64,000 nt of DNA from assembly GCF_003334385.1 (NCBI RefSeq), contig NZ_QOWN01000002.1. The stretch is one strand, 5' to 3'. Below the pieces are notes generated by a model that was not told where the DNA came from, did not search any database, and saw only the letters and a list, made by a program, of their open reading frames with translations. A program made the translations under genes and the position numbers. This stretch comes from Escherichia coli (GTDB taxonomy: Bacteria; Pseudomonadota; Gammaproteobacteria; Enterobacterales; Enterobacteriaceae). Positions 10,472-15,176 of this stretch are shown here, piece by piece. Within the stretch, counting starts at the first letter, position 1. Each line of letters opens with the position of its first letter.

Positions 10472-10647
10472 AACGACCTACGTTAATTACCTCATTGACG
10501 GCATGAAGTGTATCAAAATGAAATGAACAGGATATGTGCGACCACTCACAAATTAACTTTCAATACTTTCCAGAGTATCGTTGTTACAATTAAATACCTT
10601 TAAATATCAACAAGTTAAAGTATAAAAATCAGCATAAACCCTGATTT
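10472..10647. promoter_or_regulatory. Divergent tdcA / tdcR control region (tdc promoter; CRP, IHF and FNR dependent by established knowledge)
   Basis: 176-bp AT-rich gap between divergent tdcA and tdcR; individual binding sites not resolved by eye. Confidence 0.45.
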
Positions 10648-10659
10648 TTGTCAAAAAAA

Positions 10660-11004
10660 ATGACGGGGATAACCATATTTTATGGCGATAACATCATTCG
10701 TTATGTGGTTAATACAAAAAAGGGGCTGAGACCATATTTCAAGCAATTACCGGATAATTACCAAGCAAAATTTGAGTTAAATTTAATGAGCAAGTTCTCA
10801 AATTTTATTATAAATAAACCATTTTCAGTGATAAATAATGCGGCATGTCACATTTTTTCACGCTATTTGTTGGAGAACAAACATTTATTTTATCAATATT
10901 TTAAAATTTCGAATACATTTATTGATCATCTCGAACAATTGATTAACGTCAACTTTTTCTCTTCTGACAGGACGTCATTTTGTGAATGCAATCGTTTTCC
11001 ATAA
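10660..11004 (+). CDS. tdcR: Threonine dehydratase operon activator TdcR (small, AT-rich gene)
   Basis: ORF divergent from tdcA reading MTGITIFYGDNIIRYVVNTKKG...; very low GC; start choice (10648 vs 10660) uncertain. Confidence 0.6.
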   Translation: MTGITIFYGDNIIRYVVNTKKGLRPYFKQLPDNYQAKFELNLMSKFSNFIINKPFSVINNAACHIFSRYLLENKHLFYQYFKISNTFIDHLEQLINVNFFSSDRTSFCECNRFP

Positions 11005-11259
11005 ATTCTTCTCCCCTCATAGGCGACGAATAGCATTTTGTGTTGAGGATCACAAAACGAATAATTGCTGATCGCCGCGATAAGGTCAGACAAAGACAAC
11101 AAGGGAAATTTTCACAGAGCTTTTGATCGGCGTAGGCCACAGAATGTTGCTTCGTTTACTGTAACGCCGGGTAAATGAGCGTTTTTTGATAGTGCGAAAG
11201 AACCCTGCGAGGAAAATAAGCATCTATTATTGTTTGTCATGATGACAAGGCAGGCATCA

Positions 11260-11799
11260 ATGAAAGGCTTCCCAATTGCGCATATTTTTCACCCTTCAAT
11301 CCCGCCAATGCACGCAGTGGTTAACAATCACAATAGAAATATTGATTATTGGACGGTAAAAAGAAAGTTTGCAGAAATTGTCTCCACCAATGACGTTAAT
11401 AAAATTTACAGTATAAGTAATGAACTGCGGAGAGTATTATCTGCAATAACTGCATTGAATTTCTATCATGGCGATGTTCCTTCTGTCATGATCCGAATCC
11501 AACCGGAAAATATGAGTCCATTCATTATAGATATTTCTACAGGAGAACATGATGATTATATCATACAAACATTAGATGTAGGCACTTTTGCACCTTTTGG
11601 TGAACAATGTACTTGCTCAGCCGTCAATAAAAAAGAGCTGGAATGTATTAAGGAGACGATTTCTAAGTATTGTGCAAAATTCACCCGAAAAGAAGCCATC
11701 TTAACCCCCCTTGTGCACTTTAATAAAACCAGCATTACTTCAGATTGTTGGCAAATTCTCTTTTTTTCACCCGATCATTTTAATAATGATTTTTATTGA
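11260..11799 (+). CDS. yhaB: Uncharacterised protein YhaB
   Basis: AT-rich ORF downstream of tdcR; start placed at MKGFPIAHIF... (track ORF begins 10 codons earlier); no recognisable domain. Confidence 0.7.
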   Translation: MKGFPIAHIFHPSIPPMHAVVNNHNRNIDYWTVKRKFAEIVSTNDVNKIYSISNELRRVLSAITALNFYHGDVPSVMIRIQPENMSPFIIDISTGEHDDYIIQTLDVGTFAPFGEQCTCSAVNKKELECIKETISKYCAKFTRKEAILTPLVHFNKTSITSDCWQILFFSPDHFNNDFY

Positions 11800-11820
11800 T
11801 TATTTATAAAGGATAAAATA

Positions 11821-13008
11821 ATGTTCCCTGTTTCATCAATTGGTAATGATATTAGTAGTGATTTAGTCCGTCGAAAAATGAATGACCTTCCTGAAAGCCC
11901 AACAGGAAATAACCTCGAAGCACTAGCACCAGGTATAGAAAAACTAAAACAGACCTCTATTGAAATGGTCACTTTACTTAACACGTTACAACCTGGTGGA
12001 AAATGCATTATCACTGGTGATTTTCAAAAAGAATTAGCGTACTTACAAAATGTAATTCTTTATAATGCCTCGTCTCTTCGTCTGGATTTTTTAGGTTATA
12101 ACGCCCAAATTATTCAACGATCGGACAATACTTGTGAACTTACCATTAATGAACCGTTAAAAAACCAGGAAATATCCACAGGTAATATCAATATTAATTG
12201 CCCATTAAAAGATATTTACAATGAAATCAGGAGGTTAAACGTAATTTTTAGTTGTGGGACTGGAGATATCGTTGATCTATCCTCTCTGGACTTACGTAAT
12301 GTCGATTTAGATTATTATGATTTCACAGATAAACATATGGCTAATACTATTTTAAATCCTTTTAAATTGAATTCAACAAATTTTACTAATGCCAACATGT
12401 TTCAGGTTAATTTTGTTAGTTCAACACAAAACGCCACAATCTCCTGGGATTATTTACTAAAAATAACGCCTGTTTTAATAAGCATTAGCGATATGTATTC
12501 TGAAGAAAAAATCAAGTTTGTCGAAAGTTGTTTAAATGAGCCTGGAGACATTACCGAAGAACAATTAAAAATTATGAGATTTGCAATTATAAAATCTATA
12601 CCAAGGGCAACTCTTACAGATAAATTAGAAAATGAATTAACAAAAGAAATATATAAAAGCTCATCGAAAATCATCAATTGCTTGAACAGAATTAAATTAC
12701 CAGAGATGAAAGAATTCTCATCAGAAAAAATATATGATTACATCGATATAATCATTGAAGATTATGAAAATATCAAAGAAAATGCTTATCTGGTCGTCCC
12801 CCAAATTAATTATACTATGGATTTAAACATAGAAGACTCTAGCTCAGAAGAGTTACTTTCAGATAATACCCTCGAGAAAGACGAAAATTCTCCGGACAAT
12901 GGCTTTGAGGTCGGGGAATATAACACATATGAAGCATATAACTCAGAGAAGCAATATTTTACCAGAGAGGACTATACGTATGATTACGACCTTTTAAATG
13001 CAATATAG
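11821..13008 (+). CDS. yhaC: Uncharacterised pentapeptide-repeat protein YhaC, 395 aa
   Basis: 395-aa AT-rich ORF; middle region shows 5-residue periodicity (SLDLR NVDLD YYDFT ... NTILN PFKLN STNFT NANMF QVNFV); acidic Tyr/Glu/Asp-rich C-terminus. Confidence 0.8.
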   Translation: MFPVSSIGNDISSDLVRRKMNDLPESPTGNNLEALAPGIEKLKQTSIEMVTLLNTLQPGGKCIITGDFQKELAYLQNVILYNASSLRLDFLGYNAQIIQRSDNTCELTINEPLKNQEISTGNININCPLKDIYNEIRRLNVIFSCGTGDIVDLSSLDLRNVDLDYYDFTDKHMANTILNPFKLNSTNFTNANMFQVNFVSSTQNATISWDYLLKITPVLISISDMYSEEKIKFVESCLNEPGDITEEQLKIMRFAIIKSIPRATLTDKLENELTKEIYKSSSKIINCLNRIKLPEMKEFSSEKIYDYIDIIIEDYENIKENAYLVVPQINYTMDLNIEDSSSEELLSDNTLEKDENSPDNGFEVGEYNTYEAYNSEKQYFTREDYTYDYDLLNAI

Positions 13009-13127
13009 ACTTAATAACTTCTTACAAAGTCTATTATTAATACCGTAGATATTTATTCATCTTACCCTGTGCACCAAAAGCAAAAACTCACTGACGCGGG
13101 TTTGAAACTGATGGCAACCGCAAAAAT

Positions 13128-13225
13128 GCCTGATGCGCTACGCTTATCAGGCCTACGCCATCTCTGCAATATATTGAATTTGCGTGCTTTTGTAGGCAGG
13201 ATAAGGCGTTCACGCCGCATCCGGC
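13128..13225. repeat. REP/BIME palindromic elements (two inverted REP units)
   Basis: gcctgatgcgctacgcttatcaggcctac and taggcaggataaggcgttcacgccgcatccggca, the canonical E. coli REP consensus in opposite orientations. Confidence 0.6.
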
Positions 13226-13254
13226 ATGAATAAAGCGCACTCAACAATCTGAAA

Positions 13255-13621
13255 CCCGCCGGAACGGTTTATTACGTACATCAGGTAAAACTGACCGATA
13301 AGCCGCTTTCTTTTGGGTATAGTGTCGTGGACAGTCATTCATCTTTCTGCCCCTCCAAAAGTAAAAACCCGCCGAAGCGGGTTTTTACGTAAAACAGGTG
13401 AAACTGACCGATAAGCCGCTTTCTTTTGGGTATAGTGTCGTGGACAGTCATTCATCTTTCTGCCCCTCCAAAAGCAAAAACCCGCCGAAGCGGGTTTTTA
13501 CGTAAACCAGGTGAAACTGACCGATAAGCCGCTTTCTTTTGGGTATAGCGTCGTGGACAGTCATTCATCTTTCTGCCCCTCCAAAAGCAAAAACCCGCCG
13601 AAGCGGGTTTTTACGTAAATC
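13255..13621. repeat. About 3.25 direct tandem copies of a 113-bp unit downstream of rnpB; each carries a terminator-like hairpin and a copy of the rnpB 3' end
   Basis: cccgccgaagcggg recurs at 13255, 13368, 13481 and 13594 (period 113); each unit repeats caggtgaaactgaccgataagccg...gtcgtggacagtcattcatct, the 3' terminal rnpB sequence. Confidence 0.85.
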
Positions 13622-13998
<377 letters not shown>

Positions 13999-14005
13999 GG
14001 CGCGC

Positions 14006-14033
14006 AGTATAGAGGGTTTGCGCGCCCTTGTCA
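14006..14033 (-). promoter_or_regulatory. rnpB promoter (-10 TATACT, -35 TTGTCA-like) inside the 3' end of garK
   Basis: On the reverse strand TGACAA-16 nt-TATACT lies 8-13 nt upstream of the mature rnpB 5' end. Confidence 0.5.
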
Positions 14034-15176
14034 CCCCGCGTTGCGCATTCCAATCGCCAGTGTCGCGGCGATATTACGTGAAGCACGGCAGATATTGTCA
14101 TAAGCCCCGCGGAATGCTTCGTCCAACGTACCTATGCTGGTCAATACGCTGAAGACCGCATCAATGCCATGCTGATGTACAACGCCAACATCATCGGTCA
14201 GGCTACCCGCAATGCCAATCACCGGTTTATGGTACTTCTTCGCCACGTTTGCGACACCAATCGGTACCTTCCCGTGAATACTCTGGCTGTCAATACGCCC
14301 TTCACCGGTGATCACCAGCGTACAATCGTGAATATGTTCCTCCAGATTCAGCGCCGTAGTGACGATTTCAATACCACTTTTCAGTTCCGCACCAAGAAAC
14401 GCCATTAGCGCCGCGCCCATACCACCCGCAGCTCCTGCACCGGGGACATCTTTCACATCAACATGCAGCGCTTTTTTAATGACCTCGGCATAGTGAGAGA
14501 GGTTATTGTCCAGCTCAACAATCATCGCTTCACTGGCTCCCTTTTGTGGGCCAAAGATGCGCGATGCGCCGTTATCGCCCACCAGCGGATTGGTGACATC
14601 ACAAGCGACGCGAATGACGCAATCTTTTAAGCGCGGATCGAGGCCGGAAATATCAATATCATTCAGAGTATTAAGACTACCGCCGCCAAAACCAATTTCA
14701 TTGCCGTTGGCGTCGCATAATTTCGCCCCCAGCGCCTGTACCATGCCTGCGCCGCCATCATTTGTAGCGCTGCCGCCAATGCCGATAATAATGTTTGTCG
14801 CACCGCTCTCCAGCGCCTGCAGGATTAACTCGCCTGTGCCGCGTGAAGTGGTCACGAGTGGATCGCGTTTTTCCGCAGGTACCAGCTCCAGCCCACTGGC
14901 CGCCGCCATTTCAATAAACGCGGTTTTGCCATCGCCGGAGATCCCCCAACTGGCATTCACTTTCTCGCCCAGCGGCCCTGTAACCCAGGCGTGACGTTCA
15001 GCCCCCTGGGTGGCTGCAATCATCGCTTCCACCGTTCCTTCGCCACCGTCGGCAACCGGAACAGAAACGTACTGTGCATCAGGAAAAATTTCCCGAAATC
15101 CTTTTTCTATCGCCTGCGCAACCTCGCTGGCAGATAAACTTTCTTTATAAGAGTCTGGGGCGATTACGATTTTCAT
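14031..15176 (-). CDS. garK: Glycerate 2-kinase GarK, 381 aa
   Basis: MKIVIAPDSYKESLSASEVAQAIEKGF... glycerate-kinase N-terminus; start trimmed from the track ORF, which is extended upstream. Confidence 0.9.
   Translation of the reverse strand: MKIVIAPDSYKESLSASEVAQAIEKGFREIFPDAQYVSVPVADGGEGTVEAMIAATQGAERHAWVTGPLGEKVNASWGISGDGKTAFIEMAAASGLELVPAEKRDPLVTTSRGTGELILQALESGATNIIIGIGGSATNDGGAGMVQALGAKLCDANGNEIGFGGGSLNTLNDIDISGLDPRLKDCVIRVACDVTNPLVGDNGASRIFGPQKGASEAMIVELDNNLSHYAEVIKKALHVDVKDVPGAGAAGGMGAALMAFLGAELKSGIEIVTTALNLEEHIHDCTLVITGEGRIDSQSIHGKVPIGVANVAKKYHKPVIGIAGSLTDDVGVVHQHGIDAVFSVLTSIGTLDEAFRGAYDNICRASRNIAATLAIGMRNAG

What the first reader, a model, noticed from the sequence alone, without database searches (positions are those of the whole stretch)
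13255..13621. 3.25 tandem copies of a 113-bp unit derived from the rnpB 3' end, each with its own terminator hairpin
Directly downstream of rnpB the sequence repeats with an exact 113-bp period (anchor cccgccgaagcggg at 13255, 13368, 13481, 13594). Each unit duplicates the last 50 nt or so of M1 RNA (caggtgaaactgaccgataagccg…gtcgtggacagtcattcatct) followed by a GC hairpin flanked by A and T runs, which could terminate in either direction. Copies differ by only a few substitutions, implying recent amplification or ongoing homogenisation. This reproduces the repeated-terminator arrangement described for rnpB, so it is unusual rather than novel; copy number is likely strain-variable and the repeats could yield 3'-extended or decoy transcripts.
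Basis: partly seen in the sequence, partly recalled or inferred. Interest (0 to 1): 0.35.

Follow-up and report, generated by a model that had tools for sequence, protein, structure and literature searches.

The report
Repeated pseudo-ends and terminators after rnpB
Just after the E. coli gene for RNase P RNA, the gene's last 50 bases and its terminator are repeated three more times as disabled copies; the array has been described before, but its copy number varies between strains, it occurs in many related genera, and each copy carries a site where mobile islands insert.

Summary
The window is E. coli K-12 and rnpB lies on the minus strand (13998..13622). Tandem Repeats Finder gives a 113-bp period, 3.5 copies, 96% matches and no indels over 13252-13644.

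In RNA sense, the true M1 3' end plus terminator T1 is followed by three pseudo-units. Each is the last 50 nt of M1 with a 12-nt insertion and a mutated P4 strand, so it cannot function in RNase P. U1 and U2 are followed by exact copies of the T1 hairpin.

From my memory, this is the 3'-flanking repeat of Reed and Altman (1983). I could not retrieve that paper here.

- The same insertion-bearing pseudo-unit sits after rnpB in 39 of 106 species loci (genome representatives) across Enterobacteriaceae and Erwiniaceae.
- The last ~20 nt of M1, present in every unit, is the attachment core of tyrosine-integrase islands. These are found at the true gene or at a pseudo-unit.

The finding itself is already known, so interest is modest.

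The parts
13622..13998 (-). rnpB, the gene for M1 RNA (catalytic RNA of RNase P)
   Evidence: RF00010, 318.6 bits, full model 1-367. Annotated as rnpB in K-12 genomes that are 100% identical here.
13571..13671 (-). Unit 0: the true last 50 nt of M1, the 3' trailer, terminator T1 and a spacer. Period 101 nt. It is the copy the repeats derive from.
   Evidence: Register printed. It folds with a 12-bp hairpin.
13589..13612 (-). T1 hairpin: AAAAACCCGC-UUCG-GCGGGUUUUU, followed by GCUUUU
   Evidence: Palindrome I3. dG -19.4 kcal/mol, z -3.7 in rnpB sense; -13.9 kcal/mol on the + strand.
13458..13570 (-). Pseudo-unit U1 (113 nt): M1 3' end with a 12-nt insertion, trailer, and terminator copy T2 (13476-13499)
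13345..13457 (-). Pseudo-unit U2 (113 nt) with terminator copy T3 (13361-13388)
   Evidence: (I4)
13232..13344 (-). Pseudo-unit U3, the distal copy. The M1-like part is intact apart from one change.
   Evidence: Fold z = +0.21. No terminator found in the census.
13538..13549 (-). The 12-nt insertion (GCUAUACCCAAA) that separates pseudo-units from true M1. The same insertion lies at 13425-13436 and 13312-13323. The adjacent P4 strand reads AGC instead of CCC.
   Evidence: Pairwise alignments. Shared across genera.
13623..13641 (-). Copy of the integrase attachment core CTTATCGGTCAGTTTCACC inside true M1. Further copies are at 13510-13528, 13397-13415 and 13284-13302 (the last with 1 mismatch).
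   Evidence: for the four copies. Islands flanked by this core in other genomes.
13044..13103 (-). Relic of an older unit next to yhaC: a decayed hairpin and GCTTTTGG (13074-13103), then a decayed AGATGAAT block (13044-13063). In strains with no pseudo-units this sequence follows T1 directly.
   Evidence: Families D2 and D3. Comparison with O157:H7 FRIK944 and Z30.
13110..13240 (.). REP-type palindromes between the array and the relic. They are not part of the repeat.
   Evidence: Sequence. Sub-threshold matches to the REP-derived families ES036 and naRNA4.
14006..14034 (-). Promoter-like site of rnpB (GTGACA, 17-nt spacer, TATACT)
   Evidence: This is a consensus match only.

Best explanation
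This is the known repeat array in the 3' flank of E. coli rnpB.

Shown: a segment made of the last 50 nt of M1 RNA, its 3' trailer and the intrinsic terminator T1 is present four times head to tail. The first copy is the working end of the gene. The other three are pseudo-ends. A 12-nt insertion and two substitutions break the P4 strand of the catalytic core, so they cannot serve RNase P.

Shown: unequal crossing-over and gene conversion between units keep the copies nearly identical and change their number, from 0 to about 8 among E. coli strains.

Inferred function: T2 and T3 act as back-up terminators. They would stop polymerases that read through T1 of this very heavily transcribed gene, and less efficiently polymerases arriving from the convergent yhaC. 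That would insulate rnpB from its neighbours.

Shown in related genomes, inferred for K-12: every unit also carries the ~20-nt end of M1 that a family of tyrosine-integrase islands uses as its attachment core. The array therefore offers several alternative integration sites, most of which leave the gene's own trailer and T1 untouched.
For: - Periodicity and identity.
- Anatomy of the units and of the insertion. The P4 assignment comes from the Rfam alignment, where ACAGAACCCGGCUU is the conserved 3' core strand.
- Hairpins fold strongly for T1-T3 and not for the distal copy.
- Seven E. coli loci show 0, 1, 2 and 4 pseudo-units, two hairpin alleles, and variants shared by all units of one strain, which indicates homogenisation.
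- Population sample.
- In 44 arrays from K-12 and other species, terminator-like hairpins are kept by 44/44 true ends, 31/34 internal pseudo-units and 21/31 last units.
- Concerted evolution: the 50 nt after the core are 90% identical (median) between the true end and pseudo-unit 1 within a species, against 68% between species.
- Islands at this site: E. coli YZ22PE67 and G3/10 have an integrase gene next to rnpB and the displaced core plus trailer plus T1 at the far end. Cedecea L030 has a 3-kb island inserted in a pseudo-unit. Integrase calls: 65 and 77.
- The mature M1 end is the only 3' end called at this locus in the held Term-seq tables.
Against:
- About 27% of E. coli genomes and many species do without any pseudo-unit. 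The array is therefore dispensable.
- Back-up termination does not explain why the unit includes a pseudo-3' end. It also does not explain why the same 12-nt insertion persists across genera.
- The tool's own terminator scan did not list these hairpins. I attribute this to the A-U pairs that extend the stem and use up the T run, so I relied on folding and my own census instead.
- The prior description (Reed and Altman 1983) rests on my memory.
Confidence: 0.8

Rival explanations
1. The pseudo-units are scars or hitch-hikers of integrative islands rather than simple duplications. Islands that target the rnpB end displace the old 3' fragment with its trailer and terminator to their far side, as happens at tRNA genes. 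Loss of cargo, or excision through a neighbouring core, would then leave or spread pseudo-ends. This would explain their patchy but wide distribution.
For: - The M1 end is a real att site with a regenerated gene end and a displaced fragment.
- One island sits inside a pseudo-unit, and its trailer and terminator are displaced about 3 kb away.
- The island arm next to the core is itself a diverged homologue of the M1 3' region.
- The flank after the array differs between species and is often foreign DNA: low-GC yhaBC, and T6SS effector-like genes.
- The Islander abstract describes this same pattern for tRNA genes (PMC4383910).
Against: - The displaced fragments actually seen start at CTTATCGG and lack the AGATGAATGACTGTCCAC block and the 12-nt insertion.
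- Units lie head to tail with an exact period and no cargo remnants.
- Exact periodicity requires tandem duplication in any case.
Confidence: 0.25
2. The units are expressed as functional RNAs. Read-through or processed 113-nt RNAs carrying the M1 P1 and P2 3' strands would pair with the 5' end of M1 or titrate RNase E. They would act as decoys or folding helpers.
For: - The insertion-bearing pseudo-unit is conserved across Enterobacteriaceae and Erwiniaceae, although repeats of this kind are easily deleted.
- Each unit keeps the trailer that follows the mature end, which is where RNase E is reported to cut pM1 RNA (own knowledge; pM1 as an RNase E substrate).
Against: - The consensus fold of 35 pseudo-unit cores from different species gives 5 pairs, -1.66 kcal/mol and no compensatory change.
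- No Rfam family matches beyond weak terminator-driven hits.
- No 3' end is called at T1, T2 or T3 in the held Term-seq tables. Reads in repeats may have been discarded, which weakens this point.
- The array is absent from about 27% of E. coli genomes.
Confidence: 0.1
3. Each unit encodes a small protein. Two overlapping 38-codon frames start in AGAUGAAUGAC, and in K-12 GGAGG lies 9 nt before the first AUG.
For: ORFs of 38 aa recur in every unit on the minus strand. A GGAGG is present in the spacer. As I recall, Reed and Altman noted open reading frames here.
Against: - Periods in other species are 101-134 nt and not multiples of 3. The insertion varies by single nucleotides, and the GGAGG is not conserved.
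- The frame runs through the terminator hairpin.
- RefSeq annotates no gene here.
Confidence: 0.03

Closest known systems
113-bp repeats in the 3' flank of the E. coli M1 RNA gene
   Same: Same organism, same locus, same 113-bp period and about 3.5 copies. Homology to the M1 3' end, terminator-like hairpins and short ORFs in each repeat.
   Different: Nothing differs in the K-12 sequence itself. I could not check whether later literature covers these points.
Tandem intrinsic terminators behind stable-RNA genes (for example rrnB T1 T2) and bidirectional terminators between convergent genes
   Same: GC hairpin with a U run, an A run on the other side, several in series behind a very strongly transcribed non-coding RNA gene, and a position between convergent genes.
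   Different: Here the terminators are exact copies produced by duplicating a block that also contains a pseudo-end of the gene. Their number is polymorphic and can be zero.
tRNA and tmRNA genes as integration targets of genomic islands (Islander, PMC4383910)
   Same: A tyrosine integrase gene lies next to the target. The crossover falls in the 3' end of a stable-RNA gene. The island restores the gene end, and the displaced 3' fragment marks the far end of the island.
   Different: The target is RNase P RNA. The site is pre-multiplied in a tandem array of pseudo-ends, so an island can land in a pseudo-unit. The K-12 window itself holds no island.

Membership tests
rnpB 3'-flanking 113-bp repeat of E. 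coli K-12 | Lies directly 3' of rnpB in E. coli | tested here: met
   rnpB is at 13998..13622 (-) and the array at 13252-13644. The window is 100% identical to K-12 genomes.
rnpB 3'-flanking 113-bp repeat of E. coli K-12 | 113-bp period, about 3.5 copies | tested here: met
   Period 113, 3.5 copies, 96% matches, no indels
rnpB 3'-flanking 113-bp repeat of E. coli K-12 | Each repeat holds homology to the M1 3' end and a terminator-like hairpin | tested here: met
   Homology is present in all three pseudo-units. The hairpin is intact in T1, T2 and T3 and degenerate in the distal unit.
Intrinsic (Rho-independent) terminator | GC-rich stem-loop directly followed by a U run | tested here: met
   AAAAACCCGC-UUCG-GCGGGUUUUU-GCUUUU, dG -19.4 kcal/mol, z -3.7. 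The census rule was passed by unit 0, U1 and U2 and not by U3.
Intrinsic (Rho-independent) terminator | Releases transcripts at that point in vivo or in vitro | not testable with these tools
   T1 is used as a terminator part in Cambray et al. 2013. Nothing is available for T2 or T3. The held Term-seq tables list only the mature M1 end.
Bidirectional terminator | Hairpin with a U run after it on both strands | tested here: met
   The + strand reads UUUUUACG after a -13.9 kcal/mol hairpin. The - strand reads UUUUUGCUUUU after a -19.4 kcal/mol hairpin. Function was not tested.
Variable-number tandem repeat | Copy number differs between strains at the same locus | tested here: met
   The unit query finds 1-8 places per genome. 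Array spans correspond to 0-4 extra units in a 60-genome sample. Seven loci were read directly.
Functional RNase P RNA 3' end (RF00010) | Intact P4 3' strand ACAGAACCCGGCUU at the right distance from P2 | tested here: not met
   The pseudo-units have a 12-nt insertion and AGC in place of CCC. They score only 18-20 bits against RF00010, whose gathering score is 100.
Structured small RNA | Conserved secondary structure supported by compensatory changes | tested here: not met
   RNAalifold on 35 cores gives 5 pairs, none with a compensatory change, and -1.66 kcal/mol.
Small protein gene | Reading frame and start signals conserved in relatives | tested here: not met
   Unit lengths of 101-134 nt, single-nucleotide length changes in the insertion, and a GGAGG present only in Escherichia.
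Integrase attachment site in a stable-RNA gene (tDNA-like target) | Island flanked by a direct repeat of the gene's 3' end, integrase gene at one end, gene end regenerated, old fragment displaced | tested here: met
   Met in related genomes: L130, L131 and L030, with integrases at phrog_1 E 1.7e-35 and 8.7e-25. In the window itself only the four cores are present and there is no island.

The most novel reading that the evidence does not exclude
The pseudo-3'-end unit is not a recent E. coli accident. It would be an old, maintained element of Enterobacterales rnpB loci, defined by the shared 12-nt insertion and the broken P4 strand. It would persist because it works together with rnpB-targeting integrative islands. 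Either it acts as a decoy attachment site that lets islands land without disturbing 3' maturation and termination of an essential ribozyme, or the islands themselves spread it between hosts. RNase P RNA would then join tRNA and tmRNA genes as a regular island target, with a built-in array of spare sites.
Probability: 0.3. Interest if true: 0.55.

Novelty: already known. Interest (0 to 1): 0.3.

Why it matters
For K-12 this explains a textbook-era oddity and matters little by itself. Three practical consequences follow.
- The locus is a length-polymorphic marker and a trap for short-read assembly. One XL1-Blue assembly has units dumped in a junk region.
- Probes or primers against the M1 3' end also match the pseudo-units.
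- Multi-mapping filters may hide any transcripts from the array.

The wider observations could make two questions testable: how an essential ribozyme gene tolerates island traffic at its 3' end, and why easily deleted repeats persist. These observations are the same disabled pseudo-end in many genera, and integrase islands that use the M1 end or its copies.

Tried and rejected
- **Terminator scan:** the built-in scan listed none of the hairpins. I replaced it with folding and a census script.
- **Literature:** I could not retrieve the original description. Only indirect support was found: the 'rnpB T1' name and pM1 RNA as an RNase E substrate.
- **Rfam at permissive threshold:** only terminator-driven or REP-driven sub-threshold hits. 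A weak STnc180 hit disappeared when the stretch was not truncated.
- **Conserved structure in the pseudo-unit core:** none.
- **Coding potential:** rejected because the frame is not conserved.
- **A second site of the repeat in XL1-Blue (H101):** an assembly junk region made of repeat fragments.
- **A synthetic 9-unit query to rank genomes by copy number:** the ranking was scrambled by the joining of pieces, so I used the record spans instead.
- **A far copy of the core in Kosakonia L061:** a chance match.
- **A displaced rnpB fragment beyond yhaB-yhaC in the window:** none found.

Full report
**Where we are.** The window is E. coli K-12. A 1,051-nt stretch around the finding is 100% identical to MG1655-type genomes, with yhaC, rnpB and garK annotated. 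Rfam places rnpB on the minus strand at 13998..13622 with the full RNase P class A model (318.6 bits). 'Downstream of rnpB' therefore means lower coordinates. Window position 13622 corresponds to MG1655 3270216.

**The observation.** Tandem Repeats Finder reports one array at 13252-13644: period 113, 3.5 copies, 96% matches, no indels, score 716. The repeat finder gives three 197-nt copies spaced exactly 113 nt apart, and shows that each hairpin is a perfect palindrome. At 13255 it has three mismatches. The 19-nt end of M1 occurs four times in the window and never in 100 shuffles.

**Anatomy in RNA sense.** Unit 0 (13671-13571, 101 nt) is the true end of the gene. It reads AGAUGAAUGACUGUCCACGACAGAACCCGGCUUAUCGGUCAGUUUCACCU, then the trailer GAUUUACGU, the hairpin T1 and the spacer GCUUUUGGAGGGGCAGAA.
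- Three 113-nt pseudo-units follow: U1 13570-13458, U2 13457-13345 and U3 13344-13232.
- Pairwise alignment shows that a pseudo-unit is the same sequence with one 12-nt insertion after GUCCACGAC, and AGC in place of CCC just before GGCUUA.
- In the Rfam alignment that stretch, ACAGAACCCGGCUU, is the conserved 3' core strand (P4). The pseudo-ends therefore cannot replace the true end.
- As expected, they score only 18-20 bits against RF00010.

**The hairpins.** T1, T2 and T3 are identical 12-bp stems with a UUCG loop, followed by UUUUUGCUUUU (T1, T2) or UUUUUACUUUU (T3). They fold at -19.4 kcal/mol with z -3.7.
- On the other strand the same palindrome folds at -13.9 kcal/mol and is followed by UUUUUACG. 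Two-way termination is plausible, but weaker from the yhaC side.
- The distal unit U3 has lost the hairpin (z +0.21).
- The built-in terminator scan missed all of them. I think this is because the A-U pairs that extend the stem use up the T run.

**Beyond the array.** Further down lie REP palindromes. After them comes a relic, a decayed hairpin plus GCUUUUGG and a decayed AGAUGAAU block (13044-13103). The stop codon of the convergent, low-GC yhaC follows.

**Strain variation.**
- A single-unit query finds 1 to 8 places per genome in 5,395 of 5,426 complete E. coli genomes. 3,893 genomes hold at least 80% of a unit.
- In a systematic sample of 60 genomes, the array spans correspond to 0 extra units in 16, 1 in 15, 2 in 8, 3 in 16 and 4 in 4 (the remaining row, XL1-Blue, is an assembly artefact, see below). 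The highest place count corresponds to about 8 units.
- I read seven loci directly. O157:H7 FRIK944 and strain Z30 have none, and T1 is joined straight to the relic. O157:H7 ATCC 43890 and B19695 have one. BL21 has two. O121:H19 has four.
- There are two hairpin alleles, short and long. In O121 a spacer variant (GGAGGAGCGGAA) is shared by unit 0 and the first two of its four pseudo-units, which is the mark of homogenisation.
- The zero-unit state can be derived from a K-12-like state by deletion between the GUUUUUGCUUUUGG of T1 and that of the relic.
- One caution: an XL1-Blue assembly shows fewer units at the locus and has repeat fragments dumped in a junk region. Some assemblies may therefore miscount.

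- Of 106 loci with enough downstream sequence, 39 have at least one pseudo-unit after rnpB and 19 have two or more.
- Tandem Repeats Finder finds arrays that start at the gene end with periods of 101-134 nt. The genera are Enterobacter, Citrobacter, Kosakonia, Lelliottia, Escherichia whittamii, Pantoea, Izhakiella and others.
- All pseudo-units share the same design: the identical block AGATGAATGACTGTCCAC, an insertion of 12-13 nt, and a P4-like strand with G where M1 has C. That G is present in at least 90% of 35 units.
- The part after the core tracks the host's own gene. The true end and pseudo-unit 1 are 90% identical (median) within a species, against 68% between species.
- Terminator-like hairpins are kept by 44/44 true ends, 31/34 internal pseudo-units and 21/31 last units. 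Eleven further last units are truncated.
- Salmonella diarizonae and Escherichia sp. ESNIH1 have none. E. albertii has one decayed unit.
- The unit is therefore old, evolves in concert with the gene end, and is often lost.

**What it does not seem to be.**
- A consensus fold of 35 pseudo-unit cores gives no supported structure.
- No Rfam family fits.
- The 38-codon ORFs of K-12 have a GGAGG in front. However, neither the frame nor that signal is conserved, and nothing is annotated there.
- In the held Term-seq tables of Adams et al. 2021, the only 3' end at the locus is 3270216, the mature M1 end. None is listed between 3269600 and 3270199.
- This argues against abundant stable products. It cannot exclude them, because precursors are processed quickly and reads in repeats may be dropped.
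- The same tables list a Rho-dependent end at 3269111 on the minus strand, antisense to yhaC. Some minus-strand transcription therefore does cross this region. Its origin is unknown.

**An unexpected link to integrative islands.**
- In Cedecea sulfonylureivorans (L030), a 3-kb island with a T6SS-effector-like gene sits inside a pseudo-unit. The unit is cut right after GGCTTATCGGTCAGCTTCAAC. A second copy of that core, followed by the trailer and terminator, lies 3 kb further on.
- The same island arm (TTCTTCTAAAACAATACGTTGGTGTG...) follows the true M1 end in six other species loci and a pseudo-unit in two others. In one locus an integrase fragment follows it.
- Fifteen complete E. coli genomes carry this arm next to rnpB.
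- In strain YZ22PE67 the island is about 7.7 kb, with a tyrosine integrase, a primase-helicase and a resolvase. Its far end reads ...GAAGCC|GCCTTATCGGTCAGTTTCACCT|GGTTTACG plus a terminator, then two pseudo-units, REP and yhaC.
- In strain G3/10 the island is about 15 kb and carries a methyltransferase and a restriction enzyme. The end of M1 itself has become GGTCAGCTTCAAC, supplied by the island. The original CTTATCGGTCAGTTTCACCT plus GATTTACG, T1 and the array sit at the far end. The crossover therefore lies within CTTATCGGTCAG.
- This is the pattern known from tRNA and tmRNA genes (Islander abstract). I found no paper in the held library that names rnpB as such a target in enterobacteria. 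I cannot say whether it has been published elsewhere.

**Interpretation.**
- Shown: the array is a set of disabled copies of the gene end, each with a copy of the terminator. It is kept similar and changed in number by recombination between units.
- Inferred: T2 and T3 serve as back-up terminators that insulate a very active stable-RNA gene from its neighbours.
- Shown elsewhere, inferred here: each unit is a potential landing site for islands that target the M1 end.
- Unexplained: why the unit contains a pseudo-end at all, and why the same insertion survives in many genera although such repeats delete easily. Two possibilities are spread by the islands and selection for spare attachment sites. 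I give them together about 0.3.

**Verdict.** The finding is correct and, for K-12, already known from my recollection of Reed and Altman 1983, which I could not retrieve here. The idea of decoy transcripts has no support. Interest is modest (0.3). The cross-genus conservation and the island link are the parts worth a follow-up.

Noticed in passing
L130 19626-28250 (E. coli YZ22PE67); L131 15626-31290 (E. coli G3/10): Integrative islands lie directly behind rnpB in 15 of 5,426 E. coli genomes. They carry a tyrosine integrase, a primase-helicase and a resolvase. In G3/10 there is also an AAA ATPase, a cytosine methyltransferase and a type II restriction enzyme. The core CTTATCGGTCAG... is repeated at both ends.
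   Followed up: partly
L131 15985-16005: In E. coli G3/10 the last bases of M1 RNA itself are changed to GGTCAGCTTCAAC, the Enterobacter/Citrobacter type. The island supplies its own copy of the gene end. The change turns a G-U pair of helix P1 into G-C.
   Followed up: no
L030, L008, L020, L057 (0.5-2.5 kb downstream of rnpB): Genes for T6SS effector-like proteins of about 510-545 aa lie just after the rnpB array in Cedecea, Enterobacter and Citrobacter. By eye the N-termini look PAAR-like. The only family hit is weak: NF047924 (VPA1263-like T6SS effector DNase), E 2.8e-11, for the L030 protein. In L030 and L020 a conserved gene of about 155-170 aa precedes it.
   Followed up: partly
L130 20003-20100: The island arm that replaces the rnpB trailer folds into a long hairpin (-33.6 kcal/mol, z -4.3) with repeated GGGATACA motifs, possibly integrase arm sites. 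It has no U run, and the integrase gene follows in the same direction as rnpB. Read-through from rnpB might therefore drive the integrase.
   Followed up: no
window 13110-13240: REP-type palindromes lie between the array and yhaC. They give sub-threshold matches to the REP-derived RNA families ES036 (32.7 bits, gathering score 37.6) and naRNA4.
   Followed up: no
window about 12517, minus strand (MG1655 3269111): The Term-seq tables of Adams et al. 2021 list a Rho-dependent 3' end antisense to yhaC. Minus-strand transcription therefore passes the array or starts near it. A promoter-like site lies at 12998..12971 on the minus strand.
   Followed up: no
window 10600-13000: The yhaB-yhaC region has 29-37% G+C, against 53-60% in rnpB and garK. 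It looks horizontally acquired, and it abuts a decayed pseudo-unit start (13044-13063).
   Followed up: no
window 12917-12957: A short 18-bp tandem repeat (2.3 copies, 79% matches, score 54) lies inside the 3' end of yhaC.
   Followed up: no
L129 (XL1-Blue NZ_CP081007.1 4656395-4661547): The end of this 'complete' assembly is a patchwork of repeat fragments: partial RHS, tRNA-Glu, ISAs1 pieces and rnpB repeat units. Its rnpB locus shows only 1.5 copies. This is an assembly artefact that can bias copy-number counts.
   Followed up: yes
alignment, model positions about 325-336: The Rfam consensus for bacterial RNase P has 12 extra positions between P2 and P4 that E. coli M1 lacks. The pseudo-units carry their 12-nt insertion at exactly this place. 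This may be coincidence, or a hint about the origin of the pseudo-end.
   Followed up: no
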